NCBI GenBank assembly: GCA_002401855.1
Contig: NVUH01000007.1
Coordinates: 49,826-113,825, forward strand
Length of the DNA stretch: 64,000 nucleotides
Source: Hyphomicrobiales bacterium
GTDB taxonomy: Bacteria > Pseudomonadota > Alphaproteobacteria > Rhizobiales > OSC116
Direction of reading: 5' to 3'
Below are positions 41,593 to 55,864 of the stretch, in pieces. Position 1 is the first letter of the stretch; every line of letters begins with the position of its first letter. The notes beneath the pieces were generated by a model. It saw nothing but the letters and a program-made list of their open reading frames with translations, searched no databases and was not told the DNA's origin. Position numbers and translations under genes: made by a program.

Positions 41593-41622
41593 TAAGCAGT
41601 AACCAATTGATATCAGGTGGTA

Positions 41623-43227: not shown

Positions 43228-44328
43228 TTATTTTCCAGTTTCGGTAAATTGCCTGTTGGGGTTGAAAAGCGGTAATTCTAATTCATTGCCCAAAATATAA
43301 TCACCCATTAATTTGGATATATAGGGCCCAATGGTAAAGCCACCGCGAACGCATCCCAATATATAGGCATTGGCAATGTTGCCCAATGCACCTGCGAGTG
43401 GGTAAAAATCGGGCACATTGGCCTCAAAGCCAGTCCAAGATCGGATGATCCTCAACGCCGATAAAGCGGGCAGAGCATATTGCGCCAGTTGAATGTTTGG
43501 AATTAAGGTCTGGGCATGCACTTTGCCGCGGCCTTCATTCGGGCTACCCGTGCCTTGCCATCCGCCGCCAATTAAAATACTGCCATTGGCTTTTTGTTTC
43601 ATGGTCAATAAACCTGTCGCATGGCCAATCACATTGCTTATTAATGTCGGACTACGCTCAGTGACTGAAACGGTATTCACTCTGGCCTGAATTGGTAAAT
43701 CAACATCAAGCAGAGCCGCCGCTTGCTTCATCCATCCGCCACACGCAAGCAAAAGGCGCTTGGCTTTATATTGTTGGCTTTCAGTATGGACGCTAAAGCC
43801 TTTGTCAGAGTGATCAATTTTAACGATTTGGTTTTGTTCAAGATAATCAACAGAGGAATGATTTAACAAATTTCGATAATATTGCCCAGTTAAGGAACTG
43901 TTTGCATAACCGTCATCGGCACAATAGCTAACAGCCATAACTTTTTTGCTGATATTGGGTTCATTTTCAAACAATATTTGTGGTGAAACAAACTCAATAT
44001 TCGCGCCCGCTTCGCGTTTTAATGTCATTCGTTCTTCTAGCAATTTGGCTTCTCGCTGGTTAAAAGCCAGTGTATAGCCACCTGTTTTGACAAACCCAAC
44101 TTTATCGCCCATTTTTTGCCATTCATGATGGCCTTTAAGGGCATAAGGCATCAACTTCACACGCTTAATTTGCAATGATAATGTGCCCGCATTCACACCC
44201 GATGCCCCTTGGCCAATGTCATCTTTTTCGAGCAATATGACCGACATGCCTGCTTCGGCTAAATGCAAAGCAGTTGCGCAGCCCATTATACCGCCACCAA
44301 TGATGGCTATGTCATAATTTTTGGTCAT
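43228..44328 (-). CDS. FAD-dependent oxidoreductase, DAO family (HcnC / opine-oxidase B / D-Hyp dehydrogenase beta-like)
   Basis: 366 aa; YDIAIIGGGIMGCATALHLAEAG dinucleotide fold. Confidence 0.8.
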   Translation of the reverse strand: MTKNYDIAIIGGGIMGCATALHLAEAGMSVILLEKDDIGQGASGVNAGTLSLQIKRVKLMPYALKGHHEWQKMGDKVGFVKTGGYTLAFNQREAKLLEERMTLKREAGANIEFVSPQILFENEPNISKKVMAVSYCADDGYANSSLTGQYYRNLLNHSSVDYLEQNQIVKIDHSDKGFSVHTESQQYKAKRLLLACGGWMKQAAALLDVDLPIQARVNTVSVTERSPTLISNVIGHATGLLTMKQKANGSILIGGGWQGTGSPNEGRGKVHAQTLIPNIQLAQYALPALSALRIIRSWTGFEANVPDFYPLAGALGNIANAYILGCVRGGFTIGPYISKLMGDYILGNELELPLFNPNRQFTETGK

Positions 44329-44334
44329 AATTTC

Positions 44335-45762
44335 CTATAAAGGCGCGGGCGCGGGAATGGGCAAATCATCATAATCAAAATTTTGAGCGATGGCACTGAT
44401 TGGCAAAGGACGTAACGGCGGGCGGTGTGTCGCCAAGCCAATTTGTTGGCGGGTTTTACCCGATATGGTTTGGTTGATGAGCGCAACAACATCACTGCAA
44501 TAGCGCCCGCCACACGGCCCCATTCCACATCTTGTGCCAGATTTTATGGCATTTGGTGAGAGTGCGCCGCTTGATATTTCAATTTCTAATTGTTGGCGGC
44601 TGACCGTTTCACATCTACAGATGATGGCCGTTTGTTGCGTATTTTTAATCATACCAGCGCGCAACACCGTAAGCTTTGTTGTCGCAAGGCCAAATTTTGC
44701 CGCCGATTTCATTCTTGCCACAAGTCTGTCGGTATTTTCGGCGTTTGCAAGTTTTAGAAACTGCAAAACCGCAATGGCTGCAAGCTTGCCTCGGTACGGC
44801 GCTGCGCCTGCGCCATAAATACCCGCATTGTCTCCCGCCGCAAATAAACCAACTTTATCTGTGCGGCCAAAATCATCGGTTTTTACATGCCATCCGCCAA
44901 GCTCTGGCGTATATATATGAGTGGCATCAGCAAGCTTTGTCGCTTCTATAGCGGGGTTTAGGCCATGCCCCATGCACAAGCTGTCGGCTTTTATATTTGT
45001 TTTTCGCCCCTGACTTACTGAGCTCCAATTTGCATCGACACGCGAAATATTTACCGAATCAATGTGAGTGTCGCCGATAATTTCGGTAATTGTAGATTGC
45101 CAATATATAGGAGTTCTTGCTGCGGCTATTTTAGCCAACCATCCCGCGCCACGTAATAGTAAATCTGGCCTCGCCATCATGTTAATTGATGCTTTTGCCC
45201 AGTCTGTTTTGGAGTTTAATGATACAATCGCAGTTATTTTTCCGCCCAACCTCAATATTTCATATGCCGTAAAAATAAGCAAAGGGCCACAACCCGCAAC
45301 AATGGTTTGTTTACCAGGAATTGTTAAATGCTGCTTAAATAAAGCCGTGGCCGCAGCCAAGCCAATAACACCCGGTAATTGAGCGCCTACCACAGGTATA
45401 ACTCGTTCTTGCGCGCCTGTTGCGGCAATAATGGCTTTGCAAGTCGCATTGTGCAATTGGCCATTATTTAAATAACCAATATTCCACAAATCATCATTGT
45501 TTTTTTCAATTTGCCACACTCTTGCATTTGCAATGTGTAAAATATTGTTTGATTTTAAGTCACTGCGTAATTTATCGCCTGCGATGGTTTCTGGCGTTTT
45601 GGGTGCGCTTATAATACTAGGTGATTTTGCCCGCCAAACTTGCCCACCTGCTTCGGCTTGTTCATCAAGCATAAGTATTTTGGCGCCGGCTTTGGCCGCT
45701 TCCAAGGCTGCGTGGCTGCCTGCCGCGCCCGCGCCAATAATAATCAAGTCAAAGTCAGACAT
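44335..45762 (-). CDS. FAD/NAD(P)-binding oxidoreductase with BFD-like [2Fe-2S] Cys motif (HcnB / opine-oxidase A-like)
   Basis: FDLIIIGAGAAGS; ICRCE...RCGMGPCGGRYC; AGGGAGG SD before ATG 45762. Confidence 0.8.
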   Translation of the reverse strand: MSDFDLIIIGAGAAGSHAALEAAKAGAKILMLDEQAEAGGQVWRAKSPSIISAPKTPETIAGDKLRSDLKSNNILHIANARVWQIEKNNDDLWNIGYLNNGQLHNATCKAIIAATGAQERVIPVVGAQLPGVIGLAAATALFKQHLTIPGKQTIVAGCGPLLIFTAYEILRLGGKITAIVSLNSKTDWAKASINMMARPDLLLRGAGWLAKIAAARTPIYWQSTITEIIGDTHIDSVNISRVDANWSSVSQGRKTNIKADSLCMGHGLNPAIEATKLADATHIYTPELGGWHVKTDDFGRTDKVGLFAAGDNAGIYGAGAAPYRGKLAAIAVLQFLKLANAENTDRLVARMKSAAKFGLATTKLTVLRAGMIKNTQQTAIICRCETVSRQQLEIEISSGALSPNAIKSGTRCGMGPCGGRYCSDVVALINQTISGKTRQQIGLATHRPPLRPLPISAIAQNFDYDDLPIPAPAPL

Positions 45763-46078
45763 TTTTGCCTCCCTTGGCCTTTGGCTCCTCATATAACGAA
45801 CCAATGCTTTGTACAATTAACCCTTCAGATAATGCCACTTGGCAAGCTTCTATGCGCAATCCGCCTATCAACAATACACATTCTTGGCAGGTGCCCATAA
45901 AGCAAAACGCACCTCTTGCACTGCCATCGTGAGCCATTCGCGTGGTTATGATGCCATTTGCGGCCAAGGCAACAGTCACACTTTCGCCTAAATGACCAAA
46001 ATAAGTGGTTCCGTTGAAACTAAATTCAACCAGTTGGCTACGTTTAACTTTCGAACCTGTTTGCCTAAAAAAACGCAT
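45755..46078 (-). CDS. Small (2Fe-2S)-binding subunit (HcnA-like)
   Basis: FSFNG...GAFCFMGTCQECV; stop overlaps next start by 8 nt; start (46078 ATG or 46087 TTG) uncertain. Confidence 0.7.
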   Translation of the reverse strand: MRFFRQTGSKVKRSQLVEFSFNGTTYFGHLGESVTVALAANGIITTRMAHDGSARGAFCFMGTCQECVLLIGGLRIEACQVALSEGLIVQSIGSLYEEPKAKGGKNV

Positions 46079-46089
46079 GAAGTGCAACT

Positions 46090-46989
46090 TTATTGGTAAG
46101 AAATGTTGAGTGAATCAAAACATTTTTTAATTTTATCTATATCTACCTGCGTGGCTGCATTCACTGGCTCGCGAGGCACGCCAGCAGGCAGGCCAATTAA
46201 ATTTAACGCCGCCTTAAACGAGGCTGGCCACGTTGCCGTACTCATTAATAATTCATACAATACAGTTAAATCATAATGTAATTTTTTATATTCTTCATTC
46301 GGGCTTTGGGTGGCGATTTGAGATATACGCTTGGTTATATCGCCTAAAAATTCTGGCCCCGTGGCAATAAAACCTTTTGCACCCAAACCAATTGAAGGCA
46401 GTATATAATGGCATGGCCCGACCATAATAGACATTCTATCGGCAAACCTCTCAATTAAATGCGTGTGATGAAAAAAATCCCGTTGAGATTCTTTAATGCC
46501 AATAATCGGCGCGACATCTAAAATAGCCCCAATGTCATCGACAGACATATTAAGCCCCGCTCTGCGTGGTGAATTATAAGCAATAATCGGCAAATCGCAG
46601 CCAGCAGCTAGGTTCTCGAAGCGGGCTAACAATTCATCGCGAGTTGCTTTAAGCACATAAGTTTGCGGCATAGCCAAGATAGCCGAAGCTCCGTTTTCTT
46701 TGGCTTCGTGACAATAGGCAAGACTGGCTTTTAGGGTCGGTGCCGATACGCCCGTTATAATCGGCACACGGCCTGCCGATGTTTCAACGGCTAATTTCGT
46801 CAACCGCCCGCGTTCTTCTGGTGATAATGTCCAGCTTTCGCCATTGTCGCCCGAGACGCAAATGGCGGTTGCGCCATTGACAATGAGCCAATTGACGATT
46901 TCTTTAAAGTCATCCTCCATAATGTCGCCCGCTTTATTAAACGGTGTGACGACGGCAGGCACAAAGCCATGTAAATCTTGTTTTTGCAT
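46090..46989 (-). CDS. DHDPS-family protein (aldolase or Pyr4H2C-deaminase-like)
   Basis: 299 aa; GFVPAVVTPF...ICVSGDNGESWTLSPEER. Confidence 0.8.
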   Translation of the reverse strand: MQKQDLHGFVPAVVTPFNKAGDIMEDDFKEIVNWLIVNGATAICVSGDNGESWTLSPEERGRLTKLAVETSAGRVPIITGVSAPTLKASLAYCHEAKENGASAILAMPQTYVLKATRDELLARFENLAAGCDLPIIAYNSPRRAGLNMSVDDIGAILDVAPIIGIKESQRDFFHHTHLIERFADRMSIMVGPCHYILPSIGLGAKGFIATGPEFLGDITKRISQIATQSPNEEYKKLHYDLTVLYELLMSTATWPASFKAALNLIGLPAGVPREPVNAATQVDIDKIKKCFDSLNISYQ

Positions 46990-46992: not shown

Positions 46993-47880
46993 TTAACTCT
47001 CATTTACGGAAATGTTGATGCGGTAAATTGCACCATATTGTGCTTCAATTATATATAATTCATTTTGGTTTTTTGGCTGAAAGGCAATGCTGGTTACCCA
47101 TAAACCTTGCGGTAAGCGTATGTCCAACAACAAGTCACCTAAAGGCGAATAAATATAAACGCGCCCCTTTTGGGCATGAGCAACGGCTAACTTATCATCT
47201 TCATTAATCGCCAACCCATCTGGGCCTAATCCTCCAGTTAGCTGTATATAATTGCCAACCATTGGGTATGTGGGTTCGGGTTTGTTGGTTTTAAACTTCC
47301 ACACTGCATTGGCGCGGGTGGCCGCTACAAAACAGCTTTGCCCATTGGGTGATGTCACAATCCCATTGGGGTAGGGGACATTGTTAAGGATGAGGCTCAA
47401 ACCATCTAAATTATTATATTTATATACGCAACCTGTCGGGTTAGAAAGGCTTGTGCGGCCACAGTCGGTAAAATAATAATCACCATTGGCTGCGATGGTT
47501 AAATCCGAAAGGCCTTTAAACGGCACTCCATTATAAGCAGTGACAATTGTTGATAGCTTATTTTTTTTCGGCGCGTATTTTACCAGACCTAACTTGTAAT
47601 CAACAATGATAAAATCGCCATTCTTATCTATTTTTATGGAATGTGGCTCACCGTCATATTGGTAGAATAATTGCCATTCACCAAGCTGGGTGATTTTAAA
47701 AATGCGTCCGTAAGGCACATCAACTAAATATAAATTGCCATCAGCATCAAATTCGGGGCCTTCAAGAAATGAATGTAAATTTTGCCCCGGTCTGGTCATT
47801 TTAACCCAGTCATTCGGCGCGCCTTTAAAATGCAGCTCTTCTGGCAATTGAGTGAACAGACTTGCGGTTATTTTTGCCAT
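46993..47880 (-). CDS. SMP-30/gluconolactonase/LRE-like beta-propeller protein
   Basis: 295 aa; LEGPEFDADGNLYLVDVPYGRIFKI, PNGIVTSPNG repeats. Confidence 0.8.
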   Translation of the reverse strand: MAKITASLFTQLPEELHFKGAPNDWVKMTRPGQNLHSFLEGPEFDADGNLYLVDVPYGRIFKITQLGEWQLFYQYDGEPHSIKIDKNGDFIIVDYKLGLVKYAPKKNKLSTIVTAYNGVPFKGLSDLTIAANGDYYFTDCGRTSLSNPTGCVYKYNNLDGLSLILNNVPYPNGIVTSPNGQSCFVAATRANAVWKFKTNKPEPTYPMVGNYIQLTGGLGPDGLAINEDDKLAVAHAQKGRVYIYSPLGDLLLDIRLPQGLWVTSIAFQPKNQNELYIIEAQYGAIYRINISVNES

Positions 47881-49052
47881 TATAATATCACTCCGCTTTT
47901 TCTAAGCGCTGCTATTTCTTCAGGTTTAACATCAATTTGTTGCAAAATTTCATCCGTATGTTGCGAAATTTGCGGCGCAGAACGTGTTAATTTCACTCCG
48001 CCTTCATCTGCAAATTTGTAAGCAGATGTGGGTATATATTGGGGCTTGCCATTAATTGTCACTTTTTCAAAAAATTGTCGCGTATCAAGCTGCTGGTCAT
48101 TAACCGCAGCTGCCAAAGGGCGCAATTTTTCGGCTGGTAAGCCAATATTGTGCATATATTCCTGCCAAAACTCGGCCGTATTTTGTAAAAACACACTCCG
48201 CAATTCGGTGTAAAGACTCTCGCCAGCTTTCCACAACTCATCCCATTCATTCAAAATTGGAATTCTAATGTGGCAATAACCATCTAGAGACAAGGCTTTT
48301 AAACATTTGCTCATCTGCTGCGGCGTAAAAGCCCCTAAACATAATTCACCCTGTTGAGTTGGGTATATTTTAATGCCAGCTTCCAAATGGTTTGGGTTGT
48401 TATGTTGGTTTTTCTCTCGTGCCGCTTCAGGCGCCATCATTAACAAGGCCGTTTCATACATTGAAACTGAAATATAAGCCCCCATTCCCGTTCGTTCGGC
48501 TCTAAAAAGTGCAGCCGAAATTGCAAAAGCTGCCTCTAAACCTGTTGCATAATCTACAAAGGAAACACCAGGTTTATGCCCGCCACTTTGGCTAATGATG
48601 CCGCTTGAAGCCTGTATCACATTGTCATAAGCATTGGTTTTGGCTTTGTTGCCGGTCGCCCCAAAACCAGTGATTGAGCAATATATTAGCTTTGGGTTGA
48701 CGGCGGTTAGTGCTTTATAACCAAGCCCCAACTCATCAAGTGCAGAGGTGCGGTAATTTTCCACCAATATGTCGGCTTGCTTGATGAGTTTTTTAAATAT
48801 CGTTTGACCTTGGTAAGTTTTAAGGTCGATGCTGATTGCACGTTTATTGCCACCCTGCACTTGATAATTCATACCCAGCATTTTGTTGTTTTGAGAGACA
48901 TCACCACCGCGTCCCCGCGCGCAGTCTGGGTTTTTTGGGTTTTCAACTTTGATAACGTCAGCGCCCAATAGGGCGAATTGATAGGTTGCGAAAGGTCCTG
49001 CGAGAACATGTGTTAAATCAATGACTTTGATGTCTTTAAACGGTTGGCTCAC
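47880..49052 (-). CDS. Family III CoA-transferase (CaiB/BaiF)
   Basis: FKDIKVIDLTHVLAGPFATYQFALLGADVIKVE; stop shares 1 nt with next start. Confidence 0.85.
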   Translation of the reverse strand: MSQPFKDIKVIDLTHVLAGPFATYQFALLGADVIKVENPKNPDCARGRGGDVSQNNKMLGMNYQVQGGNKRAISIDLKTYQGQTIFKKLIKQADILVENYRTSALDELGLGYKALTAVNPKLIYCSITGFGATGNKAKTNAYDNVIQASSGIISQSGGHKPGVSFVDYATGLEAAFAISAALFRAERTGMGAYISVSMYETALLMMAPEAAREKNQHNNPNHLEAGIKIYPTQQGELCLGAFTPQQMSKCLKALSLDGYCHIRIPILNEWDELWKAGESLYTELRSVFLQNTAEFWQEYMHNIGLPAEKLRPLAAAVNDQQLDTRQFFEKVTINGKPQYIPTSAYKFADEGGVKLTRSAPQISQHTDEILQQIDVKPEEIAALRKSGVIL

Positions 49053-49122
49053 ATTATACCTATTTTGTTGAAATGTTATATTTTATATTGACTGATTTTC
49101 AAAAAATAATAAACTGCGATTG

Positions 49123-49157
49123 TGTTTTATACACTAAATTATGTTTTATATACAAAC
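49123..49157. promoter_or_regulatory. Two adjacent TGTTTTATA boxes (GTGTTTTATACAC and ATGTTTTATATACAAAC)
   Basis: Read directly in the divergent promoter region; the 17-mer is identical to 55865-55881. Confidence 0.45.
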
Positions 49158-49193
49158 GATAGTATCAAAATAACGACACTGGATCACATTGAA

Positions 49194-50552
49194 ATGACCG
49201 CTTTATTGCATCGAGACCTAAAATCTAACTTACCTATTGTAGTCAAAGGTGAGGGGTCTTATTTATTTGATGCCAAAAATAATAAATATTTAGATGCATG
49301 TGGCGGCGCCGCAGTGGCAAGTCTAGGTCATTCTCACCCAAAAGTTTTAAAAGCCATAAAAGCTCAATTGGATGATTTTTCATTCGCCCATACCGGTTTT
49401 TTTACCAACAATCCCGCCGAGCAACTTGCCTTAAAACTGCAACAATATGCACCTAAAGGTTTTGAAAATGCCCGCACCATGTTTTTAGGTTCAGGTTCTG
49501 AGGCGATGGAGGCCGCCATAAAACTTGCGCGCCAATTTCACCTAGAAAATGGCGAAGCCAGCCGAACCAAATTAATATCACGCGAATTTGCTTATCATGG
49601 CAATACACTTGCGGCGCTTGCTGTTGGTGGCCATCCAGAACGGCGCAAACCCTTTTTGCCTTTACTGCTTTGCGTCGGGCGCATTCCTGCATGTTATGCA
49701 TATCGTGAGCAGCAAGATTTTGAAAGTGAAGAGCAATATGGCATTCGCGCGGCCAATTATTTGGAAGCAGAAATTCTACGTTTAGGCGCAGACACTGTGG
49801 CGGCATTTACTGTAGAGCCAGTATCTGGCGCTACATTGGGCAGTGTGGTGGCGGCAAAGGGCTATTTTAAGCGCATACGTGAAATTTGCGACCAATATGG
49901 CGTGTTATTGATTGCTGATGAAGTTATGTGTGGGATGGGGCGTACAGGCACAATGTTTGCCATTGAACAAGAAGGCATTACCCCTGATATCATCACCATG
50001 GCGAAAGGTTTGGCGGCTGGCTACCAGCCTTTAGCCGCGGTTATGGCATCGGATAAAGTGGTGAATGTTATTTTGTCTGGTAGTGGTAAATTATGGAATG
50101 GCCACACCTATATGAGCCATGCTGTGGCTTGTGCAGGCGCACTTGCAGTGCTGAATGTCATCGAAGAGGAAAATTTATTAGAAAATGTAAATGTCCAAGG
50201 CAAAAAATTAGCCAAAGCGTTAAAACAAGAATTTTCAAACCGCGATTATATCGGCGACATTCGGGGGCGCGGTTTATTTTGGTCGTTAGAGCTTGTGCAA
50301 AATAAACGGACCAAGCAACCGTTTGACGCGGCATTGGGCTTGGCCGCTAAATTCAAATCAAAAGCATTTGAGAATGGTTTGCTCACCTATCCTGCTAGCG
50401 GGTTTATTGATGGCAAGTTGGGCGATCATGTTCTATTGGCACCACCGTATAATGTTTCAGATGCAGAAATATCTGAAATTATAAAAAAATTAGCGATTAC
50501 TTTTGATCAAATTATGCCAGTTTTAGCAAATGAGGGGCAAATTAATGACTGA
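49194..50552 (+). CDS. Class III (omega) aminotransferase
   Basis: YLDACGGAAVASLGHSHP, LIADEVMCGMGRTG, PDIITMAKGL (PLP-Lys); ATG 49194 preferred to GTG 49122, which lies inside the boxes. Confidence 0.85.
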   Translation: MTALLHRDLKSNLPIVVKGEGSYLFDAKNNKYLDACGGAAVASLGHSHPKVLKAIKAQLDDFSFAHTGFFTNNPAEQLALKLQQYAPKGFENARTMFLGSGSEAMEAAIKLARQFHLENGEASRTKLISREFAYHGNTLAALAVGGHPERRKPFLPLLLCVGRIPACYAYREQQDFESEEQYGIRAANYLEAEILRLGADTVAAFTVEPVSGATLGSVVAAKGYFKRIREICDQYGVLLIADEVMCGMGRTGTMFAIEQEGITPDIITMAKGLAAGYQPLAAVMASDKVVNVILSGSGKLWNGHTYMSHAVACAGALAVLNVIEEENLLENVNVQGKKLAKALKQEFSNRDYIGDIRGRGLFWSLELVQNKRTKQPFDAALGLAAKFKSKAFENGLLTYPASGFIDGKLGDHVLLAPPYNVSDAEISEIIKKLAITFDQIMPVLANEGQIND

Positions 50553-51420
50553 TAAAACAATCATCACTTGCGCAATAAATGGCAATTTAACCAAATTGTC
50601 TCAACATCCAGACTTGCCCATAACTCCACAACAAATTGCCAAAGCGGCATTAGACGCAGCCGATGCAGGCGCGGCAATTGTCCATTTACATGTCAGAAAT
50701 CCGGAAACATCAATTGGTTGTATGGATTTAGATTTGTATGAAGAAATGTATCATTTGATCAGATCAAAAAACACTGACCTCATTATAAACCTCACTACAG
50801 GCGAAGGCGGACGGTTTGTTCCCTCTGATGATGACCCGCAAATGGCCGCAAAAGGCAGCACGCTTTGCAGCCCAGAGCGCCGTGTCGAACATGTAAAAAG
50901 ACTAAAGCCCGAAATTTGCACCTTAGATTTCAATACAATGTGGTCTGGGCAAGCGGCCGTAATTAACAGCCCGCGAAATGTCAAAATTATGGCAGATATT
51001 ATTTACGCCGCAGGAACAAAACCTGAGATTGAATTATTTGATGGTGGCGACTTAAATATGGCGTTAGATTTCCTTAAAAAAGGCATCATCAAAGCGCCGT
51101 TAATGATGCAAATTGTGATGGGGGCAAATTATGGTGCCATTGCAAACCCGCAAACATTAATGTATCTGGTGTCTCAAATACCAAAGGACACTGTGTGGGC
51201 AGCGTTTGGCATTGGGCGGCACGAATTCCCAATGGTTGCACAGGCCTTTCTTTTGGGCGGTCATGTAAGGGTTGGTATGGAGGATAATTTGCAAATTAGC
51301 AAAGGTGTTTTGTGCAAAGATAACGCACAATTGGTTGGCAAAGCCAAATTGATCATTGAAAATTTGGGCGGAACCATAGCCACTCCAACAGATGCACGCA
51401 AAATGCTAGATTTAACCTAA
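50545..51420 (+). CDS. BKACE (DUF849) family beta-keto acid cleavage enzyme, second paralog
   Basis: IITCAINGNLTKLSQHPDLPITPQQIA...AGAAIVHLHVRN; ATG overlaps aminotransferase stop by 8 nt. Confidence 0.85.
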   Translation: MTDKTIITCAINGNLTKLSQHPDLPITPQQIAKAALDAADAGAAIVHLHVRNPETSIGCMDLDLYEEMYHLIRSKNTDLIINLTTGEGGRFVPSDDDPQMAAKGSTLCSPERRVEHVKRLKPEICTLDFNTMWSGQAAVINSPRNVKIMADIIYAAGTKPEIELFDGGDLNMALDFLKKGIIKAPLMMQIVMGANYGAIANPQTLMYLVSQIPKDTVWAAFGIGRHEFPMVAQAFLLGGHVRVGMEDNLQISKGVLCKDNAQLVGKAKLIIENLGGTIATPTDARKMLDLT

Positions 51421-51436
51421 TGTATTGGAGGCTGAA

Positions 51437-52075
51437 ATGGTGAAAAATAATATGAATGACACGATAAACCCAACCAATAGGTTGCCGCTCACCAATGAAG
51501 ACACCGTCGGGCCCTATTATCCTATTTGTTATGATCATGATGACCGAATGGATTTAACCAAATCAATTGTTGGCCAACAATTCGAGCCCAAAGGTGACAA
51601 AATTATCCTTCGTGGGCGGTATATAGATAAAAATGGCGACGGCGCACATGGCGCATTGATAGAGTTTTGGCAAGCCAACGCCCAAGGGGTGTTTAGAACC
51701 GAAGACACAGAATCTTCGCCAGAAATTGACCCACATTTCGATGGTTATACGCGATACCGCACTGTCACTGGCGATTTTGAACTTAAAACCATAAAATCTG
51801 GCACGCAATTAGGCCGTGCGCCCAACATCACTTTGACATTGTTTTCAGATGGCATTTCAAGACTGGTGACCCAAGTTTTCTTTGAAAATGAAATTTCAAA
51901 TGAAACCGACCCCGTGCTCATGTCGTTGCCGCAAGATAAACGTGACAAATTAATTGCGCGACTTGTTGGTGAAGATGACGATAACATTCCGATTTATGAC
52001 ATTGAAATTATTTTGGCAGGTGAGGGTGAGACGCCCTTTTTTGATGATTTTTTAGCATTAGGGTGGAGAGATTAA
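51437..52075 (+). CDS. pcaG: Protocatechuate 3,4-dioxygenase alpha-subunit-like (intradiol dioxygenase family)
   Basis: TVGPYYP..., IEFWQANAQGVF...; GGAGG SD before ATG 51437. Confidence 0.65.
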   Translation: MVKNNMNDTINPTNRLPLTNEDTVGPYYPICYDHDDRMDLTKSIVGQQFEPKGDKIILRGRYIDKNGDGAHGALIEFWQANAQGVFRTEDTESSPEIDPHFDGYTRYRTVTGDFELKTIKSGTQLGRAPNITLTLFSDGISRLVTQVFFENEISNETDPVLMSLPQDKRDKLIARLVGEDDDNIPIYDIEIILAGEGETPFFDDFLALGWRD

Positions 52076-52743
52076 TGGAAAAATTAGGTAGAAAATTACG
52101 CATTGGCCCGACCGACAATACATCTTATGAGCGCACGCCGAGAGAAAATTTACGCATCATCCCGCCTGCCGCGCGCGATAGCTTTTTACCATATTCTCGG
52201 GTGCAGCCCGGCATTCGCTTGGGCGAAAACGACTTAACACGCTTAGCGCCCGATCTGCCACGTGCTGATGGTGATGCGATAGAAATGAGCGGCCAAATAT
52301 TGGATGACACTGGCCAGCCGCTCCGTCATGCTTTGGTCGAAATTTGGAACGCCAATAAATATGGTAAATATGCTCATGATTTAGATGGTTATAGCGCTCC
52401 GTTAGACCCTAATTTTATTGGCCTTGGCCGTATGTTGACTGATGAAGAAGGCCGATATAAATTTTGGACAATCGACCCTGGATGCTATCTTGCACGGCCT
52501 GATATTAACAGGTGGCGGCCGAAACATATTCATTTGTCTATAAGGGGCGGTGCATCACGGCTCATCACGCAAATGTATTTTAAAGATGCCGAACATAATG
52601 ACACCGACCCCATGCGCATTGTGATGGGTGATGATTTTCATTTAAACATCGGCAAACAATATGAAACACCCAATATAGACGTTGAGCGCGGGTATAAATT
52701 TGACATTGTGATAAGAGGCAAAGACTCAACTTTTTTTGAGTAG
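52075..52743 (+). CDS. pcaH: Protocatechuate 3,4-dioxygenase beta-subunit-like
   Basis: VEIWNANKYGKYAH, DPGCY, WRPKHIHLSI (positions of the Tyr/Tyr/His/His iron ligands appear conserved by eye); TAATG overlap with alpha. Confidence 0.7.
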   Translation: MEKLGRKLRIGPTDNTSYERTPRENLRIIPPAARDSFLPYSRVQPGIRLGENDLTRLAPDLPRADGDAIEMSGQILDDTGQPLRHALVEIWNANKYGKYAHDLDGYSAPLDPNFIGLGRMLTDEEGRYKFWTIDPGCYLARPDINRWRPKHIHLSIRGGASRLITQMYFKDAEHNDTDPMRIVMGDDFHLNIGKQYETPNIDVERGYKFDIVIRGKDSTFFE

Positions 52744-52769
52744 GTAATTTAGCATTTATTGGATGCAAT

Positions 52770-54707
52770 CTATGCGGTCACTCGCTTGTCATGGTTGAGT
52801 AAAAAGAGGCATAATGCAGCCATTATTATGGAAAACACCACCCATAAACCACTGTCGATGGCGTCTCCAATCGTTGTGCCAAATAATGCCGCTGCTAATA
52901 TGAATAGGACTATTCTGGTTTTCCAAGATAAATACCAACGCCAATAGCCAATGCTTGCAATGGGTATGACAGCAAATAATGCCATTCCAATGCAAAAATC
53001 ATAAAGCACTTCGAGCCAGTTCTCATCTAATAAGCTTGAAAACGCAAACATAAATGGCAAAATATATAGTGCTTTTGCGATTTTTACACACTCCCATCCC
53101 GTTCGCATCGGGGGCGCTTCGGCAATGCGCGCGCCTACAATTGCAGTCATGCAAATTGGCGGTGTTATGGTCGAATCTTGTGCAAACCAAAAAATAATTA
53201 AGTGAGCCGCAAGGATAGATATTCCCATGTCTTGTAATGCCCCCGCGCCCAAAGCGGCTATGATCACATAGGCTGCCGTAACTGGCAGACCCATGCCAAT
53301 AACATAAGACATAAGACCGATTAAAATTATAGCAATAACCGCGGAACCCGCTGAATAAGCGATGAGAATGGAGGTGATTTTGGTCAATAACCCGGTTTGA
53401 ACGGTAACTGCATAAATGATGGCAGCACTGGCCAATAACGCCGAAATGGTGGCCGCAGATCTTGCGCCGCCTTCAAGTGCTGTTAACAATTGCCGCCAAT
53501 TTAACCGTGTGGCTTTTTTGGCATAACTGATGACGATGGTCATAACAACGCAAGCTGTGCTCGCAAAATAGGGGGTGAATTTCATCAATAGGAGAATGAT
53601 TAAAATGATGACAGGTATAAATACATGCCCGCCATTTTTCAGCACTTGCCACGCGCTTTTAAGTTTGTTTTTATCAATGCCTTTCATGCCATATTCGGCG
53701 GCTTTAATATCAGCATAAAAATAAATAGCCGCATAATATAAAATCGCAGGTGCCGTCGAATAGATTAAAATTGTCACCAGTGGAATGTTTGTCAAACTCG
53801 CCATGATGAACACACCAGTGCCCATTAATGGTGGCATAAGCCCGCCACCCACCGAAGACACCACTTCGATGGCTGCAGCTTCATAATTTTTAAAGCCGAG
53901 TTTTTTCATCATTGGAATGGTCATAGTGCCCGTTGTAGATACATTTGAGATAGAGCTGCCAGATAACATGCCCATTAATGCACTCGATACAACGGCTACT
54001 TTTGCGGGTCCACCACGGCGATGCCCGGCAATTGCACTTGCAAGTTCGGTAAAAACCTTATCGCCGCCTGTCATTCGTAGAAGAACCCCGAAGAGTAAAA
54101 AGGTAAATATAAATGTGGCCATGATGCCAGTGATGAAATTAAAAATACCTTCGACATCCATATACATTGTTTCGACCAGTTCGACAGTTGAAATGCCTTT
54201 ATGCTCTAAAATGCCCGGAAATAAATTGCCATATAGCGCATAGAAAATAAAAATGAGATTAAGAATAACAATGGTTGCACCCACAGTGCGCCTTGTCGCT
54301 TCGAAAATGGCTAACATCGCAATGCAGCCAAAAATAAAATCGGTATTTGGCACGGGATCGAACCCAATAAAACGATCTAGCCATCGATCTGCACTGGCAA
54401 ACGCCCATATAAAAGCAGCCATTGCAGCCAAAGCAAATGCCCAATCGAACAGGCTTGGAGATATTCTATGAGAGGATTTAAGCGCAGGATATAATAATAG
54501 GGTCAGTGGCACCATGAACATTAAATGCATGGCACGCATTTGTATTTGACCGGGTGTGATGTTAAATGCGTAATAAAGAGTGATTAATGTGATTGCAATT
54601 GCAGCGACGGTAATCGGAACGCGTTGCCAACCCGTAATTTTTCTTTGTTCATTTGGAAATGTTTTATTTCTTAAGCTCTTTGTGCTGTCATAAAAATTAC
54701 GTAGCAT
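52770..54707 (-). CDS. TAXI-type TRAP transporter fused (4TM/12TM) permease
   Basis: 645-aa polytopic protein downstream of TAXI binding protein. Confidence 0.85.
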   Translation of the reverse strand: MLRNFYDSTKSLRNKTFPNEQRKITGWQRVPITVAAIAITLITLYYAFNITPGQIQMRAMHLMFMVPLTLLLYPALKSSHRISPSLFDWAFALAAMAAFIWAFASADRWLDRFIGFDPVPNTDFIFGCIAMLAIFEATRRTVGATIVILNLIFIFYALYGNLFPGILEHKGISTVELVETMYMDVEGIFNFITGIMATFIFTFLLFGVLLRMTGGDKVFTELASAIAGHRRGGPAKVAVVSSALMGMLSGSSISNVSTTGTMTIPMMKKLGFKNYEAAAIEVVSSVGGGLMPPLMGTGVFIMASLTNIPLVTILIYSTAPAILYYAAIYFYADIKAAEYGMKGIDKNKLKSAWQVLKNGGHVFIPVIILIILLLMKFTPYFASTACVVMTIVISYAKKATRLNWRQLLTALEGGARSAATISALLASAAIIYAVTVQTGLLTKITSILIAYSAGSAVIAIILIGLMSYVIGMGLPVTAAYVIIAALGAGALQDMGISILAAHLIIFWFAQDSTITPPICMTAIVGARIAEAPPMRTGWECVKIAKALYILPFMFAFSSLLDENWLEVLYDFCIGMALFAVIPIASIGYWRWYLSWKTRIVLFILAAALFGTTIGDAIDSGLWVVFSIIMAALCLFLLNHDKRVTA

Positions 54708-54727
54708 TTATTCTAACCTGTAAAATA

Positions 54728-54757
54728 TTAAAAAAAGGCGGTCAAATTGACCGCCTT
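54728..54757 (-). terminator. Hairpin plus U7 between TAXI binding-protein and permease genes
   Basis: AAGGCGGTC-AAATT-GACCGCCTT, A-run 54730-54736 gives a U-run on the minus strand. Confidence 0.65.
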
Positions 54758-54777: not shown

Positions 54778-55767
54778 CTACATCCAACCACGTTCTTTGT
54801 AATATTTTACGGCGCCAGGATGGGTAGGAATTGGATGCCCAATTGGCAAGTCGGCTGGTTTCCAGTTTTTGAAGCCACCATAAGCTGCAATGAGCTTATC
54901 GTGATTTTCAGCCATTTCTTTCACCATATTATAGACGATTTCATCATCCATATCGGCCGTTGTAAAAATGACAGTCGGAAGATTTAGTGAATCCACTGGG
55001 TTATCTTGTCCGTCATAGGTGCCCGCTGGAATTGTAAAGGGCGTGTAACCCCATTTATTCACCATGATATCACGCACATTATCTGGTATTGAGAAAACGC
55101 GCGCATTTCGTGCCGTAATGGCTTGCGTTAAATCGCTAGAGTTCATTCCAACAGTATTGGTGTAAATATCCAATTGACGATTTTGAAATGCATCAAGAAG
55201 GCCCTGTTGCGCACCCTGTTCAACGTGAGTACCAGCAGCGCTAAGTTGATCATAGTCAAAGCCGTAAGTCATCATTATTTTTTCGATTGCAAAATAGTTT
55301 GAAGAACCTTTTTGTCCAACCCCAATGCTGGTTTTTCCACCCGTTTTAAGGTCATCAAAAACACTATTCTCAACGCCTTCAGCCAACACTATATGAACCG
55401 TGTTTGCAACCACATTGGCCACCATCCGCAGGTTTTTAAACCCGTCAATGTCATAAACATCGTTTTCCCCTTCATAAGCAAGCTTTAAGAATGGGCCATA
55501 AGAAAGACCAAATTCAGCTTTGCCAGAACCCACCTGCAATGGGTTGCCAATTGCGCCTTTGCCAGGAATTGTTGTGACGGGTTGGCCATCATAGTGACCG
55601 TTGACCATTTCAGAAATTGCAGCCGCCGTTGGGTACCAGGTGCCTGTCGGGCCACCTGAAATGAATGAAAGAGCTTTATGAGGCTCAGCTGAAACGTTTG
55701 AAAAGCTTATCGAAGCCACTAAACTTATACCAATTGCAATGGATTTATACTTATTAATGAAATACAT
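54778..55767 (-). CDS. TAXI-family TRAP substrate-binding protein
   Basis: Signal peptide then GGPTGTWYPTAAAISEMV typical of the TAXI/immunogenic-protein family; GGGAGGG SD before ATG 55767. Confidence 0.85.
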   Translation of the reverse strand: MYFINKYKSIAIGISLVASISFSNVSAEPHKALSFISGGPTGTWYPTAAAISEMVNGHYDGQPVTTIPGKGAIGNPLQVGSGKAEFGLSYGPFLKLAYEGENDVYDIDGFKNLRMVANVVANTVHIVLAEGVENSVFDDLKTGGKTSIGVGQKGSSNYFAIEKIMMTYGFDYDQLSAAGTHVEQGAQQGLLDAFQNRQLDIYTNTVGMNSSDLTQAITARNARVFSIPDNVRDIMVNKWGYTPFTIPAGTYDGQDNPVDSLNLPTVIFTTADMDDEIVYNMVKEMAENHDKLIAAYGGFKNWKPADLPIGHPIPTHPGAVKYYKERGWM

Positions 55768-55864
55768 ATTCCCTCCCAAGAAAAATTATTAGATTAACAC
55801 AAGTCTTTAATTTTTTATTGTGCTCGCGATCGAAATTAGTGAAAATTAGTTTACATGTCAATAA

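What the first reader, a model, noticed from the sequence alone, without database searches (positions are those of the whole stretch)
49194..52743. Intradiol (protocatechuate 3,4-dioxygenase-like) alpha/beta genes in one operon with a BKACE enzyme and an omega-aminotransferase, without any other pca genes
Seen in sequence: the order is aminotransferase, BKACE, PcaG-like, PcaH-like, with 8-nt, 16-nt and 1-nt junctions. The beta subunit keeps residues at the expected Tyr/Tyr/His/His iron-ligand positions (GKYAH, GCY, KHIHLS). Established knowledge: canonical protocatechuate degradation needs PcaB, C, D, IJ and F after ring cleavage and passes through the beta-keto acid 3-oxoadipate. BKACE enzymes cleave beta-keto acids using acetyl-CoA to give acetoacetate plus an acyl-CoA. 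None of pcaBCDIJF is in this window. Inference: either a BKACE-based shortcut processes a beta-keto acid formed after intradiol cleavage, or the dioxygenase acts on an amino-substituted or non-classical catechol, with the aminotransferase supplying or removing the amino group. Either would be an undescribed pathway variant.
Basis: partly seen in the sequence, partly recalled or inferred. Interest (0 to 1): 0.65.

Follow-up and report, generated by a model that had tools for sequence, protein, structure and literature searches.

The report
Orphan catechol-amine breakdown gene cluster
The four genes are real and form half of a conserved, so far unstudied 12-14-gene breakdown cluster of marine and root bacteria. 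Its ring-opening enzyme resembles protocatechuate dioxygenase but appears re-tooled for a catechol that carries an amino group.

Summary
Aminotransferase (49194-50552), BKACE (50545-51420), PcaG-like (51437-52075) and PcaH-like (52075-52743) genes are translationally coupled, and the window holds no pcaBCDIJF.

The four genes are not a stand-alone unit. They face a divergent operon (42430-49052) encoding a family III CoA-transferase, an SMP-30 lactonase-like protein, a DHDPS-like enzyme, a three-subunit flavoprotein dehydrogenase and an SDR. An IclR regulator and a TAXI-TRAP transporter flank them. Of 62 species genomes that carry this PcaH-like clade with enough flank to judge, 55 have the cluster.

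The dioxygenase keeps all iron ligands and catalytic residues. Its two protocatechuate-carboxylate contacts are both Asp instead (Tyr324beta, invariant in a 25-sequence alignment; Arg133alpha, 93%). RefSeq calls both subunits "hypothetical protein". This predicts a cationic, amine-bearing catechol as substrate, not protocatechuate.

The BKACE is not the known 3-oxoadipate-cleaving group, which already sits in canonical pca clusters of Rhodobacterales. Its nearest characterised relative is BsfD, a non-canonical enzyme. AT-BKACE is a portable cassette, probably converting a beta-amino acid to a beta-keto acid.

The substrate is unproven. L-DOPA-type compounds are my best guess. I rate this a new variant of known kinds and a good lead for pathway discovery.

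The parts
41617..42423 (+). IclR-family regulator, PcaR/PcaU/PobR-like
   Evidence: PF09339 plus PF01614. TIGR02431 scores 144.7 bits, below the 284.75 cut-off. An IclR gene is present in 47 of 62 related clusters, usually lying between BKACE and PcaG'.
42430..43227 (-). SDR oxidoreductase, last gene of the divergent operon
   Evidence: PF00106 189 bits. Orthologues at 62-71% identity occupy the same position in L086, L087 and L089.
43228..44328 (-). DAO-family FAD subunit (beta) of a three-subunit flavoprotein dehydrogenase
   Evidence: PF01266 170.8 bits. Nearest solved chains are glycine oxidase and the beta subunit of Pyrococcus L-proline dehydrogenase, 1y56_B. Present in 54 of 62 clusters.
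44335..45816 (-). Pyr_redox_2 plus BFD [2Fe-2S] subunit (alpha) of the dehydrogenase. This is the longest ORF; the true start is probably about 20 codons further in.
   Evidence: PF07992, PF04324 and PF17806. Homologues are 472-477 aa.
45755..46087 (-). Fer2_4 [2Fe-2S] small subunit (gamma) of the dehydrogenase
   Evidence: PF13510 63.4 bits. Conserved position in related clusters.
46090..46989 (-). DHDPS-family class I aldolase/deaminase-like enzyme
   Evidence: PF00701 162.4 bits, with dapA below its cut-off. The Schiff-base Lys (GIKES) and the YNSPRR motif are visible in the translation. Present in 55 of 62 clusters.
46993..47880 (-). SMP-30/gluconolactonase-like six-bladed propeller protein
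   Evidence: PF08450 102.5 bits. The nearest solved chain is the Drp35 lactonase at 70 bits. Present in 55 of 62 clusters.
47880..49052 (-). Family III CoA-transferase, first gene of the divergent operon
   Evidence: PF02515 281 bits. Nearest relatives are formyl-CoA, YfdE and succinate-hydroxymethylglutarate CoA-transferases. Present in 50 of 51 core clusters.
49053..49193 (.). Divergent promoter/operator region
   Evidence: The aligned stretch 49030-49210, which spans this intergenic region, is 94% identical to the nearest relative L083 and contains the inverted repeat TTTGTTGAAA/TTTCAAAAAA. Promoter-like hexamers occur on both strands but are not enriched over shuffles.
49194..50552 (+). 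Class III (omega/beta) aminotransferase
   Evidence: PF00202 337 bits and NF005685 629 bits. Nearest solved chains are omega-, putrescine-, polyamine- and 6-aminohexanoate-type transaminases. It always lies directly upstream of BKACE, including in an unrelated cluster type.
50545..51420 (+). BKACE (DUF849) of the BsfD/RaKce subclade
   Evidence: PF05853 309.5 bits. It scores 320 bits against BsfD (9zsc). The HxH and ED metal/catalytic motifs are kept, Phe replaces the canonical Tyr, and the GGRF arginine loop is shared with BsfD.
51437..52075 (+). PcaG-like alpha subunit of an intradiol dioxygenase
   Evidence: PF00775; TIGR02423 118.6 bits, below the 126.25 cut-off. Asp138 aligns to Arg133alpha of PcaG and is conserved in 93% of 61 clade sequences.
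52075..52743 (+). PcaH-like beta subunit, the catalytic subunit, of the intradiol dioxygenase
   Evidence: PF00775 111.6 bits; TIGR02422 182.1 bits, below the 296.4 cut-off. Ligands Y99, Y138, H151 and H153, plus R148, Q166, Y168 and W91, are kept, and Asp14 replaces Tyr324. The AlphaFold2 core matches PcaH beta chains at TM 0.70.
52770..54707 (-). TAXI-TRAP fused DctQ/M membrane subunit
   Evidence: PF06808 264 bits. Orthologues sit next to the cluster in L083 (93%), L089 (58%), L092 and L094.
54778..55779 (-). TAXI-TRAP solute-binding protein
   Evidence: PF16868 185.6 bits and TIGR02122 193 bits. An orthologue at 60% identity lies next to the Acuticoccus cluster.

Best explanation
The four genes are the plus-strand half of a conserved catabolic island, probably under IclR control, spanning window 41617-55779.

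Shown or strongly indicated:
- PcaG'H' has the full catalytic apparatus of a two-subunit Fe(III) intradiol dioxygenase.
- Its substrate pocket is not that of protocatechuate 3,4-dioxygenase. The two residues that hold the protocatechuate carboxylate are both Asp.
- I infer from this that the substrate carries a positive charge (an amino group) where protocatechuate carries a carboxylate. Accessory genes in related clusters point to a catecholic aromatic amino acid such as L-DOPA.
- AT-BKACE is a portable two-gene cassette.

Inferred steps:
- The class III aminotransferase converts a beta-amino acid into a beta-keto acid.
- The BKACE removes the C1-C2 unit of that acid using acetyl-CoA.
- The family III CoA-transferase handles the resulting thioester or acetoacetate.
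- The three-subunit flavoprotein dehydrogenase, which has the architecture of D-hydroxyproline, opine or proline dehydrogenases, works with the adjacent DHDPS-like enzyme on a secondary-amine (imino acid) intermediate.
- PcaG'H' is an add-on entry enzyme. Its ring-fission product feeds this core.

One chemically complete route, purely inferred:
1. L-DOPA undergoes 3,4-intradiol cleavage to 3-(alanyl)-cis,cis-muconate.
2. A 5-exo aza-Michael ring closure gives 4-carboxymethylidene-5-carboxymethyl-proline.
3. The dehydrogenase and hydrolysis yield a 2-oxo, beta-amino triacid.
4. The aminotransferase converts this to a beta-keto acid.
5. BKACE yields acetoacetate plus 4-oxalomesaconyl-CoA.
6. The CoA-transferase releases 4-oxalomesaconate.
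7. Hydration and a DHDPS-type aldol cleavage give pyruvate plus oxaloacetate.

The SMP-30-like protein and the SDR have no assigned role in this route.
For: Catalytic residues: the iron ligands and Arg457, Gln477, Tyr479 and Trp400 equivalents are invariant.

Pocket change:
- Tyr324beta is replaced by Asp14, invariant in the GPTDNTS motif.
- Arg133alpha is replaced by Asp138 (93% of 61 sequences).
- Pro448-Trp449 are replaced by Leu-Ala.
- Canonical Klebsiella PcaG keeps the Arg.
- Both Asp also persist in natural alpha-beta fusion proteins at 40-42% identity.
- Both subunits score below the equivalog cut-offs and are named 'hypothetical protein' in RefSeq.

Co-occurrence: 55 of 62 loci have AT, DHDPS and SGL. 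51 have all five core markers. Of these, 43 have BKACE and 50 have the CoA-transferase.

Cassette behaviour: AT-BKACE occurs at 62-64% and 71-74% identity in a different cluster type. The literature describes BKACE group G6 as paired with a class III aminotransferase for beta-amino and beta-ketoglutarate substrates.

Interchangeable parts: clusters lacking BKACE keep the CoA-transferase. One cluster lacks the CoA-transferase and keeps BKACE. This fits two alternative ways of processing a beta-keto acid.

Aromatic, amino-acid flavour of accessory genes:
- An aromatic amino acid transaminase (NF006719, 523 bits).
- An FMN alpha-hydroxy-acid oxidase.
- Arylsulfatases plus a formylglycine-generating enzyme.
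- A KstD/ChcC1-like ring desaturase.
- An amino-acid ABC transporter, and TTT or TAXI carboxylate transporters.
- A PcaR/PobR-like IclR regulator.
- In Sulfitobacter donghicola, PcaG'H' sits in a homogentisate operon.
Against: - No substrate was tested, and no paper on this cluster was found.
- The roles of Tyr324 and Arg133 in binding the protocatechuate carboxylate come from my memory of the crystallographic literature. Only the positions themselves were verified here; the R133H mutant entries are visible.
- Core clusters with a TAXI-TRAP transporter but no PcaG'H' exist in Acuticoccus, Pelagibius and one metagenome contig. The core therefore has a substrate of its own that needs no ring cleavage. 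A ring-fission product of L-DOPA is an unlikely environmental nutrient.
- PcaG'H' also occurs with no core genes at all (5 of 62 loci).
- The only characterised close BKACE relative, BsfD, makes a beta-diketone and no acyl-CoA.
- D-hydroxyproline and opine dehydrogenases oxidise D-configured centres, whereas L-DOPA would give an L centre.
- Two conserved enzymes, SGL and the SDR, have no role in my route.
Confidence: 0.45

Rival explanations
1. Two independent modules lie side by side. AT-BKACE and the divergent operon degrade a non-aromatic imino acid or opine-like compound imported by the TAXI-TRAP system. PcaG'H' cleaves an unrelated catechol, or the catechol half of a composite substrate, and its product leaves by other routes.
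For: - Core clusters exist without PcaG'H'.
- PcaG'H' exists without the core, next to homogentisate genes, aldo-keto reductase or MFS genes.
- An IclR gene separates the two modules in most genomes.
- The AT-BKACE cassette is also used in another cluster type.
Against: - Co-location in 55 of 62 genomes spans Rhodobacterales, Hyphomicrobiales, Kordiimonadaceae, Emcibacteraceae, Pseudomonadales MAGs, Sphingomonas and Caballeronia. That is hard to explain without a shared substrate or regulon.
- In the window, the four genes are translationally coupled.
- The Asp/Asp pocket predicts an amine on the catechol, and the cluster encodes amine-processing enzymes.
Confidence: 0.25
2. PcaG'H' is an ordinary protocatechuate 3,4-dioxygenase, and the BKACE replaces PcaIJ/PcaF by cleaving 3-oxoadipate to succinyl-CoA plus acetoacetate.
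For: - That shortcut exists in nature. BKACE group G4 lies in Rhodobacterales pca clusters, NCBIfam has the model NF053568, and Paracoccus BKACE15 has an 'aromatic' genomic context.
- The catalytic residues of PcaH' are intact.
Against: - No pcaB, pcaC or pcaD accompanies the pair in the window or was seen in any related cluster whose genes I listed, so 3-oxoadipate could not be produced locally.
- Both subunits score below the equivalog cut-offs, and both carboxylate contacts are replaced by Asp.
- The BKACE scores 158 bits against the 350 needed for the 3-oxoadipate family, and only about 138 bits against Paracoccus BKACE15.
Confidence: 0.07
3. The overall pathway is as in the best explanation, but the BKACE works like BsfD. 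It acetylates the beta-keto acid and decarboxylates it to a beta-diketone, or simply decarboxylates it as reported for G6 enzymes on beta-ketoglutarate. No acyl-CoA is formed.
For: - It scores 320 bits against BsfD.
- It shares Phe at the position of the canonical Tyr, the roughly 20-residue loop and the loop arginine (GGRF).
- G6 BKACE is described as decarboxylating beta-ketoglutarate.
Against: - A CoA-transferase accompanies the BKACE in 50 of 51 core clusters, which suits a thioester product or acetoacetate activation.
- No beta-diketone hydrolase is conserved in the cluster.
- Whether Phe166 causes the BsfD chemistry is unproven, because the F166Y protein was insoluble.
Confidence: 0.25
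4. PcaG'H' acts downstream. The core enzymes build or release a catechol, or an enediol heterocycle, from the imported compound, and the dioxygenase then opens it.
For: - Rhizobial, Devosia, Bosea and Caballeronia clusters add a KstD/ChcC1-like ring desaturase and a further SDR, enzymes that aromatise alicyclic ketones.
- The dioxygenase genes lie last in the window operon.
Against: - If the aminotransferase had already removed the amine, the Asp/Asp pocket would be unexplained.
- AT-BKACE chemistry needs an aliphatic beta-amino acid, which is more plausible after ring opening than before it.
- Type A clusters work without any PcaG'H'.
Confidence: 0.1

Closest known systems
Protocatechuate 3,4-dioxygenase PcaGH (Pseudomonas putida 2PCD/3PCA; Acinetobacter ADP1 1EO2)
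   Same: - Two adjacent homologous Dioxygenase_C subunits.
- The beta subunit has the Tyr/Tyr/His/His Fe(III) site and Arg457.
- About 38-39% identity, with the predicted fold matching at TM 0.70.
   Different: - Tyr324beta and Arg133alpha are replaced by Asp, and Pro448-Trp449 by Leu-Ala.
- Both subunits score below the TIGR02422 and TIGR02423 cut-offs.
- It was not seen with pcaB, C or D in any context whose genes I listed.
- RefSeq annotates both subunits as hypothetical proteins.
BKACE group G4 in canonical pca clusters of Rhodobacterales (beta-ketoadipate plus acetyl-CoA gives succinyl-CoA plus acetoacetate; Bastard et al. 2014 as cited in NetSyn Table S1; NCBIfam NF053568)
   Same: A BKACE is genetically linked to a PcaGH-type dioxygenase in marine alphaproteobacteria.
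   Different: - That context contains true pcaHG, pcaB, pcaC/D, pobA and pcaQ, and no aminotransferase.
- The window enzyme belongs to another subgroup (158 bits against 350; Phe in place of Tyr; extra loop).
BKACE group G6 paired with a class III aminotransferase and a TRAP binding protein (NetSyn cluster 14)
   Same: - An aminotransferase immediately precedes the BKACE.
- A TRAP transporter is present.
- The substrate is anionic (beta-ketoglutarate).
   Different: - Membership of G6 could not be tested, because no G6 sequences were available.
- The G6 context as described has an RpiR regulator and no dioxygenase, dehydrogenase or DHDPS genes.
BsfD, the flavophos biosynthetic BKACE of Burkholderia (PDB 9ZSC; bioRxiv 10.64898/2026.01.15.699783)
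   Same: - It is the closest solved and characterised homologue (320 bits).
- It shares Phe166, the loop insertion and Arg91.
   Different: - BsfD sits in a phosphonate biosynthetic cluster and acts on 3-oxo-4-phosphonobutanoate.
- No phosphonate genes are present here, and the context is catabolic.
D-hydroxyproline dehydrogenase (three subunits) plus pyrroline-4-hydroxy-2-carboxylate deaminase (DHDPS family) of the bacterial hydroxyproline pathway; also opine oxidases OoxAB/NoxAB and HCN synthase HcnABC (from my own knowledge)
   Same: - The same three-subunit architecture: Fer2_4, Pyr_redox_2/BFD and DAO.
- A DHDPS-family gene lies directly adjacent.
   Different: - The cluster has no hydroxyproline epimerase and no alpha-ketoglutarate semialdehyde dehydrogenase.
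- No sequence comparison with the characterised enzymes was possible here.
- The partner genes (aminotransferase, BKACE, CoA-transferase, SGL, dioxygenase) are foreign to those pathways.
Oxidative deoxyribonate pathway (SDR plus lactonase plus BKACE; Price et al. 2019, PMC6365646)
   Same: It combines an SDR, a lactonase-type enzyme and a BKACE that uses acetyl-CoA to release acetoacetate plus an acyl-CoA (abstract).
   Different: That pathway has no nitrogen chemistry, no dioxygenase and no imino-acid dehydrogenase.

Membership tests
Protocatechuate 3,4-dioxygenase, PcaG/PcaH (EC 1.13.11.3) | Two adjacent genes for homologous alpha and beta Dioxygenase_C subunits | tested here: met
   PF00775 hits both ORFs, and the genes overlap by 1 nt. 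Natural alpha-beta fusions exist.
Protocatechuate 3,4-dioxygenase, PcaG/PcaH (EC 1.13.11.3) | Fe(III) ligands Tyr408, Tyr447, His460 and His462 in the beta subunit, plus Arg457 | tested here: met
   Y99, Y138, H151, H153 and R148 align without gaps to 2pcd_M and are invariant in 25 sequences.
Protocatechuate 3,4-dioxygenase, PcaG/PcaH (EC 1.13.11.3) | Residues that hold the substrate carboxylate (Tyr324 beta, Arg133 alpha) | tested here: not met
   Asp14 (invariant) and Asp138 (93%) occupy these positions. Canonical Klebsiella PcaG keeps the Arg. The functional role of the two residues is taken from memory of the structural literature.
Protocatechuate 3,4-dioxygenase, PcaG/PcaH (EC 1.13.11.3) | Score above the curated equivalog cut-offs (TIGR02423, TIGR02422) | tested here: not met
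   118.6 bits against 126.25, and 182.1 bits against 296.4.
Protocatechuate 3,4-dioxygenase, PcaG/PcaH (EC 1.13.11.3) | Genomic association with pcaB, pcaC, pcaD, pcaIJ and pcaF | tested here: not met
   None was found in the window, and none was seen in any related cluster whose genes I listed. The control locus L084 shows the canonical layout.
Protocatechuate 3,4-dioxygenase, PcaG/PcaH (EC 1.13.11.3) | Intradiol cleavage of protocatechuate in vitro | not testable with these tools
   This needs an enzyme assay.
BKACE / DUF849 (PF05853), canonical beta-keto acid cleavage enzymes | Pfam match, with the Zn-binding HxH and the E/D catalytic motif | tested here: met
   309.5 bits. HLH and GMED align to the corresponding motifs of Kce 2y7d.
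BKACE / DUF849 (PF05853), canonical beta-keto acid cleavage enzymes | The active-site Tyr found in all biochemically canonical members (Tyr145 of CcaKce, Tyr173 of PdKce) | tested here: not met
   Phe occupies this position (EIELFDGG), as in BsfD and RaKce.
BKACE / DUF849 (PF05853), canonical beta-keto acid cleavage enzymes | Formation of acetoacetate plus an acyl-CoA from a beta-keto acid and acetyl-CoA | not testable with these tools
   This needs an enzyme assay. The closest characterised relative does not perform this reaction.
3-oxoadipate:acetyl-CoA acetyltransferase (NF053568) | Score above the curated cut-off | tested here: not met
   158 bits against 350.
[quoted passage not shown] | Score above the curated cut-off | tested here: not met
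   243.1 bits against 382.
BsfD-type BKACE subclade | Phe166, the roughly 20-residue loop after beta3, and Arg91 | tested here: met
   All three features are seen in the alignments, as described.
BsfD-type BKACE subclade | Phosphonate biosynthetic context (PEP mutase and partner genes) | tested here: not met
   No such genes appeared among the annotated window ORFs.
Class III (omega) aminotransferase | PF00202 match and NCBIfam equivalog above its cut-off | tested here: met
   337 bits for PF00202, and NF005685 629 bits against 485.
Three-subunit D-hydroxyproline / opine / HCN-synthase-type flavoprotein dehydrogenase | Adjacent genes for Fer2_4, Pyr_redox_2 plus BFD, and DAO subunits | tested here: met
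   The same trio occurs in 52-55 of 62 clusters.
Three-subunit D-hydroxyproline / opine / HCN-synthase-type flavoprotein dehydrogenase | Sequence orthology to a characterised member, and substrate identity | not tested
   No reference sequences were available. The solved-structure search gives only distant glycine oxidase and 1y56_B matches.

The most novel reading that the evidence does not exclude
The cluster encodes a complete, undescribed aerobic route for L-DOPA-type catecholic amino acids.
1. A PcaGH-derived enzyme with an Asp/Asp pocket carries out intradiol cleavage.
2. The amino-muconate product closes by aza-Michael addition to a proline analogue.
3. A three-subunit imino-acid dehydrogenase oxidises this analogue.
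4. Beta-transamination and BKACE cleavage yield acetoacetate plus 4-oxalomesaconyl-CoA.
5. The route thereby joins the lower protocatechuate 4,5-cleavage (gallate) pathway through a class I, DHDPS-type aldolase.

It would be the first intradiol pathway in which the substrate's own nitrogen cyclises onto the ring-fission product. It would also give a physiological role to the BsfD-like BKACE subclade.
Probability: 0.15. Interest if true: 0.8.

Novelty: new variant of a known kind. Interest (0 to 1): 0.58.

Why it matters
Distribution:
- The PcaH-like clade was found in 79 loci of species-representative genomes, and the cluster accompanies it in 55 of the 62 with enough flank to judge.
- It is abundant in marine metagenomes. 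Single 90%-identity clusters hold up to 746 member sequences.
- It lies on plasmids of Rhizobium leguminosarum and Sulfitobacter.
- Its dioxygenase subunits are annotated as hypothetical proteins, and I found no paper about it.

Consequences if the Asp/Asp pocket does select amine-bearing catechols:
- It would extend the best-studied intradiol dioxygenase family to a new substrate class.
- It would reveal how algal- and plant-associated bacteria use compounds such as L-DOPA or dopamine and their sulfate esters as carbon and nitrogen sources.
- It would supply a natural function for a BKACE subclade whose only characterised member makes an antibiotic.

The prediction is directly testable, because cultured strains and simple enzyme assays are available.

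Tried and rejected
- Canonical beta-ketoadipate reading. I rejected it because no pcaB, C or D is present, the dioxygenase scores are below cut-off, the pocket is Asp/Asp and the BKACE belongs to another subgroup.
- Inactive or ligand-less dioxygenase. I rejected it because all ligands and catalytic residues are invariant.
- Literature searches. Queries on BKACE plus dioxygenase, BKACE plus aminotransferase plus intradiol, L-DOPA plus intradiol catabolism, and L-DOPA as sole carbon source found nothing on this cluster. One search failed on syntax. A search for Tyr324/Arg133 papers found nothing usable.
- Hydroxyproline, opine, ectoine, lysine-fermentation, diaminopimelate, kainoid, Amadori-opine and siderophore (petrobactin/aminochelin) scenarios. 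I considered each on paper. None accounts for all the conserved enzymes, and none could be tested.
- Neighbours of stand-alone PcaG'H' pairs. These are aldo-keto reductase, MFS transporter, alpha/beta hydrolase, old-yellow-enzyme-type reductase and TonB receptor genes, which was not informative. Accessory genes of Kordiimonadaceae and Emcibacteraceae clusters (2OG oxygenase, M24 peptidase, NhaC, gluconate-2-DH subunit 3) were also not decisive.
- Structure prediction. The AlphaFold2 model of PcaH' alone is good only for the core, and residues 1-45 (including Asp14) have pLDDT below 50. The alpha/beta interface could not be modelled, so the geometry of the two Asp relative to the iron was not checked.
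- Promoter and terminator scan. Hits were not enriched over shuffled sequence.

Full report
**Observation.** The window carries four co-directional ORFs on the plus strand. They encode a class III aminotransferase (49194-50552), a BKACE (50545-51420), a PcaG-like protein (51437-52075) and a PcaH-like protein (52075-52743). The DNA shows an 8-nt overlap (ATGACTGA), a 16-nt spacer containing GGAGG, and a 1-nt overlap (TAATG).

**The real unit is larger.** A divergent minus-strand operon lies immediately upstream (42430-49052). In order, it encodes a family III CoA-transferase, an SMP-30/gluconolactonase-like protein, a DHDPS-family enzyme, the Fer2_4, Pyr_redox_2/BFD and DAO subunits of a three-subunit flavoprotein dehydrogenase, and an SDR. 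An IclR regulator (41617-42423) sits at one end, and a TAXI-type TRAP transporter (52770-55779) sits after PcaH'.

The same gene set surrounds the closest PcaH' homologues in Pseudovibrio axinellae and Rhizobium leguminosarum. It also lies on plasmids of R. leguminosarum GLR17 and Sulfitobacter sp. SK012, where RefSeq names both dioxygenase subunits "hypothetical protein".

I scanned one genome per species and found 79 loci with this PcaH' clade:

| Measure | Count |
|---|---|
| Loci with at least 9.5 kb of upstream sequence | 62 |
| Of these, with AT, DHDPS and SGL | 55 |
| With all five core markers | 51 |
| Of the 51, with BKACE | 43 |
| Of the 51, with the CoA-transferase | 50 |
| With no cluster genes at all | 5 |
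| With BKACE directly abutting PcaG', as in the window | 5 |

In most genomes an IclR gene separates AT-BKACE from PcaG'H'. The nearest public relative of the window is a marine MAG (NORP194, locus L083) with 87-96% protein identity across the whole cluster, including the TAXI genes.

**The dioxygenase.** PcaH' is 38-39% identical to solved PcaH beta chains, and the core of its AlphaFold2 model matches them at TM 0.70. Both subunits score below the curated equivalog cut-offs. The catalytic apparatus is invariant, but the substrate pocket has changed:
- The position of Tyr324(beta) is an invariant Asp within a GPTDNTS motif.
- The position of Arg133(alpha) is Asp in 93% of 61 alpha subunits. 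This position is identifiable from the R133H mutant entries.
- Pro448-Trp449 have become Leu-Ala.
- A canonical Klebsiella pcaG taken as control keeps the Arg and sits among pcaIJ, pobA and pcaB.
- Natural alpha-beta fusion proteins at only 40-42% identity keep both Asp.

From my knowledge of the 3,4-PCD substrate complexes, Tyr324 and Arg133 hold the protocatechuate carboxylate. Replacing both with acidic residues predicts a substrate that bears a cation, most simply an amino group, at that place. This is an inference. The geometry could not be checked because the N-terminal arm is poorly modelled in the monomer.

**The BKACE.** It retains the HxH and E/D motifs but belongs to neither the Kce group nor the 3-oxoadipate group (243 bits against 382; 158 bits against 350). 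Its closest solved and characterised relative is BsfD of the flavophos pathway (320 bits). With BsfD it shares a Phe where canonical BKACEs have Tyr, a roughly 20-residue loop, and the loop arginine that binds the distal anionic group of the BsfD substrate. BsfD transfers an acetyl group and decarboxylates, forming neither acetoacetate nor an acyl-CoA. The textbook BKACE reaction is therefore unverified for this subclade.

First, a different BKACE group lies in canonical pcaHG/pcaB/pcaCD/pobA clusters of Rhodobacterales and converts beta-ketoadipate to succinyl-CoA plus acetoacetate. The "BKACE shortcut" is therefore already described, but for another subgroup and context. Second, group G6 is paired with a class III aminotransferase and a TRAP binding protein and acts on beta-ketoglutarate.

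**AT-BKACE is a cassette.** The pair occurs in a quite different cluster with a similar level of identity to the window (62-64% and 71-74%). That cluster encodes an NDP-forming acyl-CoA synthetase, thiolase/DUF35 pairs, ALDH and an M24 hydrolase. A 77%-identical BKACE stands alone in Kiloniella. The fixed order of aminotransferase then BKACE supports a sequence in which a beta-amino acid is converted to a beta-keto acid and then cleaved. Some Pseudomonadales clusters lack BKACE but keep the CoA-transferase. Acuticoccus lacks the CoA-transferase but keeps BKACE. This fits two alternative ways of processing a beta-keto acid.

**Modularity.** Starting from the BKACE side, I found three clusters that have the full core and a TAXI-TRAP system but no PcaG'H': Acuticoccus, Pelagibius and one metagenome contig. 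A fourth has PcaG'H' plus a sulfatase and a class I aminotransferase. PcaG'H' also occurs alone, for example in the homogentisate operon of Sulfitobacter donghicola next to a sulfatase. The dioxygenase therefore looks like an add-on entry enzyme to a core pathway that has a substrate of its own.

**Clues to the substrate.** Accessory genes in dioxygenase-containing clusters include:
- cytoplasmic arylsulfatase/PehA-like enzymes (15 loci) with a formylglycine-generating enzyme (6 loci);
- TTT transporters (9 loci);
- a gamma-CA/PaaY/CaiE-like hexapeptide protein fused to the end of the operon (12 loci);
- a bona fide aromatic amino acid transaminase (NF006719, 523 bits; 4 loci);
- an FMN alpha-hydroxy-acid oxidase (3 loci);
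- in rhizobia, Devosia, Bosea and Caballeronia, a KstD/ChcC1-like ring desaturase with an amino-acid ABC transporter (8 loci).

The window's IclR is closest to the PcaR/PcaU/PobR subfamily. Together these genes point to a carboxylated, catecholic, aromatic-amino-acid-type compound. L-DOPA, reachable from dihydroxyphenyl-lactate or -pyruvate and from sulfate esters, is my best single guess.

**A mechanistic proposal (inference only).**
1. Intradiol cleavage of L-DOPA gives 3-(alanyl)-cis,cis-muconate.
2. The free amine can add 5-exo to the C4=C5 double bond, giving 4-carboxymethylidene-5-carboxymethyl-proline.
3. This imino acid is of the kind that three-subunit proline, hydroxyproline and opine dehydrogenases oxidise. 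Opening the resulting pyrroline-2-carboxylate gives a 2-oxo acid whose amine is beta to a carboxylate.
4. The aminotransferase makes the beta-keto acid.
5. Canonical BKACE chemistry gives acetoacetate plus 4-oxalomesaconyl-CoA.
6. Removing the CoA gives 4-oxalomesaconate, the known intermediate of the protocatechuate 4,5-cleavage and gallate pathways.
7. Hydration gives 4-carboxy-4-hydroxy-2-oxoadipate, which a pyruvate-class I aldolase of the DHDPS family could split into pyruvate plus oxaloacetate. The Lys and the YNSPRR arginine of that enzyme are present.

The route uses six of the eight enzyme types and explains the Asp/Asp pocket. Its weaknesses are these:
- The SMP-30-like protein and the SDR have no role in it.
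- Dioxygenase-free clusters exist.
- The dehydrogenase family has a stereochemical preference for D centres.
- The BKACE resembles BsfD.
- No experimental data exist.

**Verdict.** The finding is real and more substantial than a four-gene oddity. It is a widespread, unannotated catabolic cluster that contains a distinct PcaGH-derived clade.

The second reading (a non-classical, amino-substituted catechol) is supported by sequence signatures and context but remains unproven.

I rate it as a new variant of known kinds, with interest 0.58. My confidence in the general explanation is 0.45, and in the specific L-DOPA route about 0.15.

Noticed in passing
window 16094-17800 (- strand): A second BKACE paralogue (PF05853 171 bits, 16094-16861) lies directly next to a 3-hydroxyacyl-CoA dehydrogenase-family gene (16862-17800). 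This layout matches the carnitine dehydrogenase/BKACE pair described in the literature.
   Followed up: partly
window 22279-27056: A separate aromatic-looking gene set: an IclR regulator, a two-domain glyoxalase/VOC (extradiol-type) protein, an FAA-hydrolase-family protein and a 529-aa FAD_binding_3 monooxygenase. It contains no pca genes.
   Followed up: no
window 10000-13445: Another family III CoA-transferase (PF02515 413 bits) is paired with an acyl-CoA dehydrogenase and a divergent LysR regulator, a layout resembling glutarate/glutaryl-CoA genes.
   Followed up: no
window 36236-41406: A second DHDPS-family gene (36236-37279) lies in an operon with a DctPQM TRAP transporter (37294-40294), with a GntR/FCD regulator next to it (40750-41406). 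A third TRAP system, DctMQP, lies at 56502-59517.
   Followed up: no
window 19202-20077 (- strand): An rve-family integrase/transposase ORF with HTH_21. It lies in the region of lowest GC content (about 0.39-0.44) between the carnitine-type genes and the aromatic set.
   Followed up: no
window 28010-36119: A LacI regulator, an ABC sugar-type transporter, a 689-aa ADP-ribosylglycohydrolase-family protein and a PfkB kinase lie in one direction. The substrate is unknown.
   Followed up: no
proteins P0241, P0242: Natural single-chain fusions of a PcaG'-like and a PcaH'-like domain (409-418 aa, 40-42% identity). They keep the iron ligands and both diagnostic Asp residues, and would be useful for structural work.
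   Followed up: partly
L004, L022, L024, L033, L044, L080, L086 and others, immediately after PcaH' (e.g. L086 14666-15214): A gamma-carbonic-anhydrase/PaaY/CaiE-like hexapeptide protein is fused to the end of the PcaG'H' operon in 12 loci. The window lacks it.
   Followed up: partly
window 49053-49193 versus L083 6945-7125: The aligned stretch spanning the divergent intergenic region (49030-49210) is 94% identical to the nearest relative. It carries an imperfect inverted repeat, TTTGTTGAAA ... TTTCAAAAAA, which is a candidate operator.
   Followed up: partly
L088 10001-10882 (Kiloniella majae): Apart from the direct orthologue in MAG NORP194 (95%), the closest BKACE homologues (76-77% identity, Kiloniella spp.) stand alone next to a homoserine O-succinyltransferase-family gene. 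They have no aminotransferase or cluster partners.
   Followed up: no
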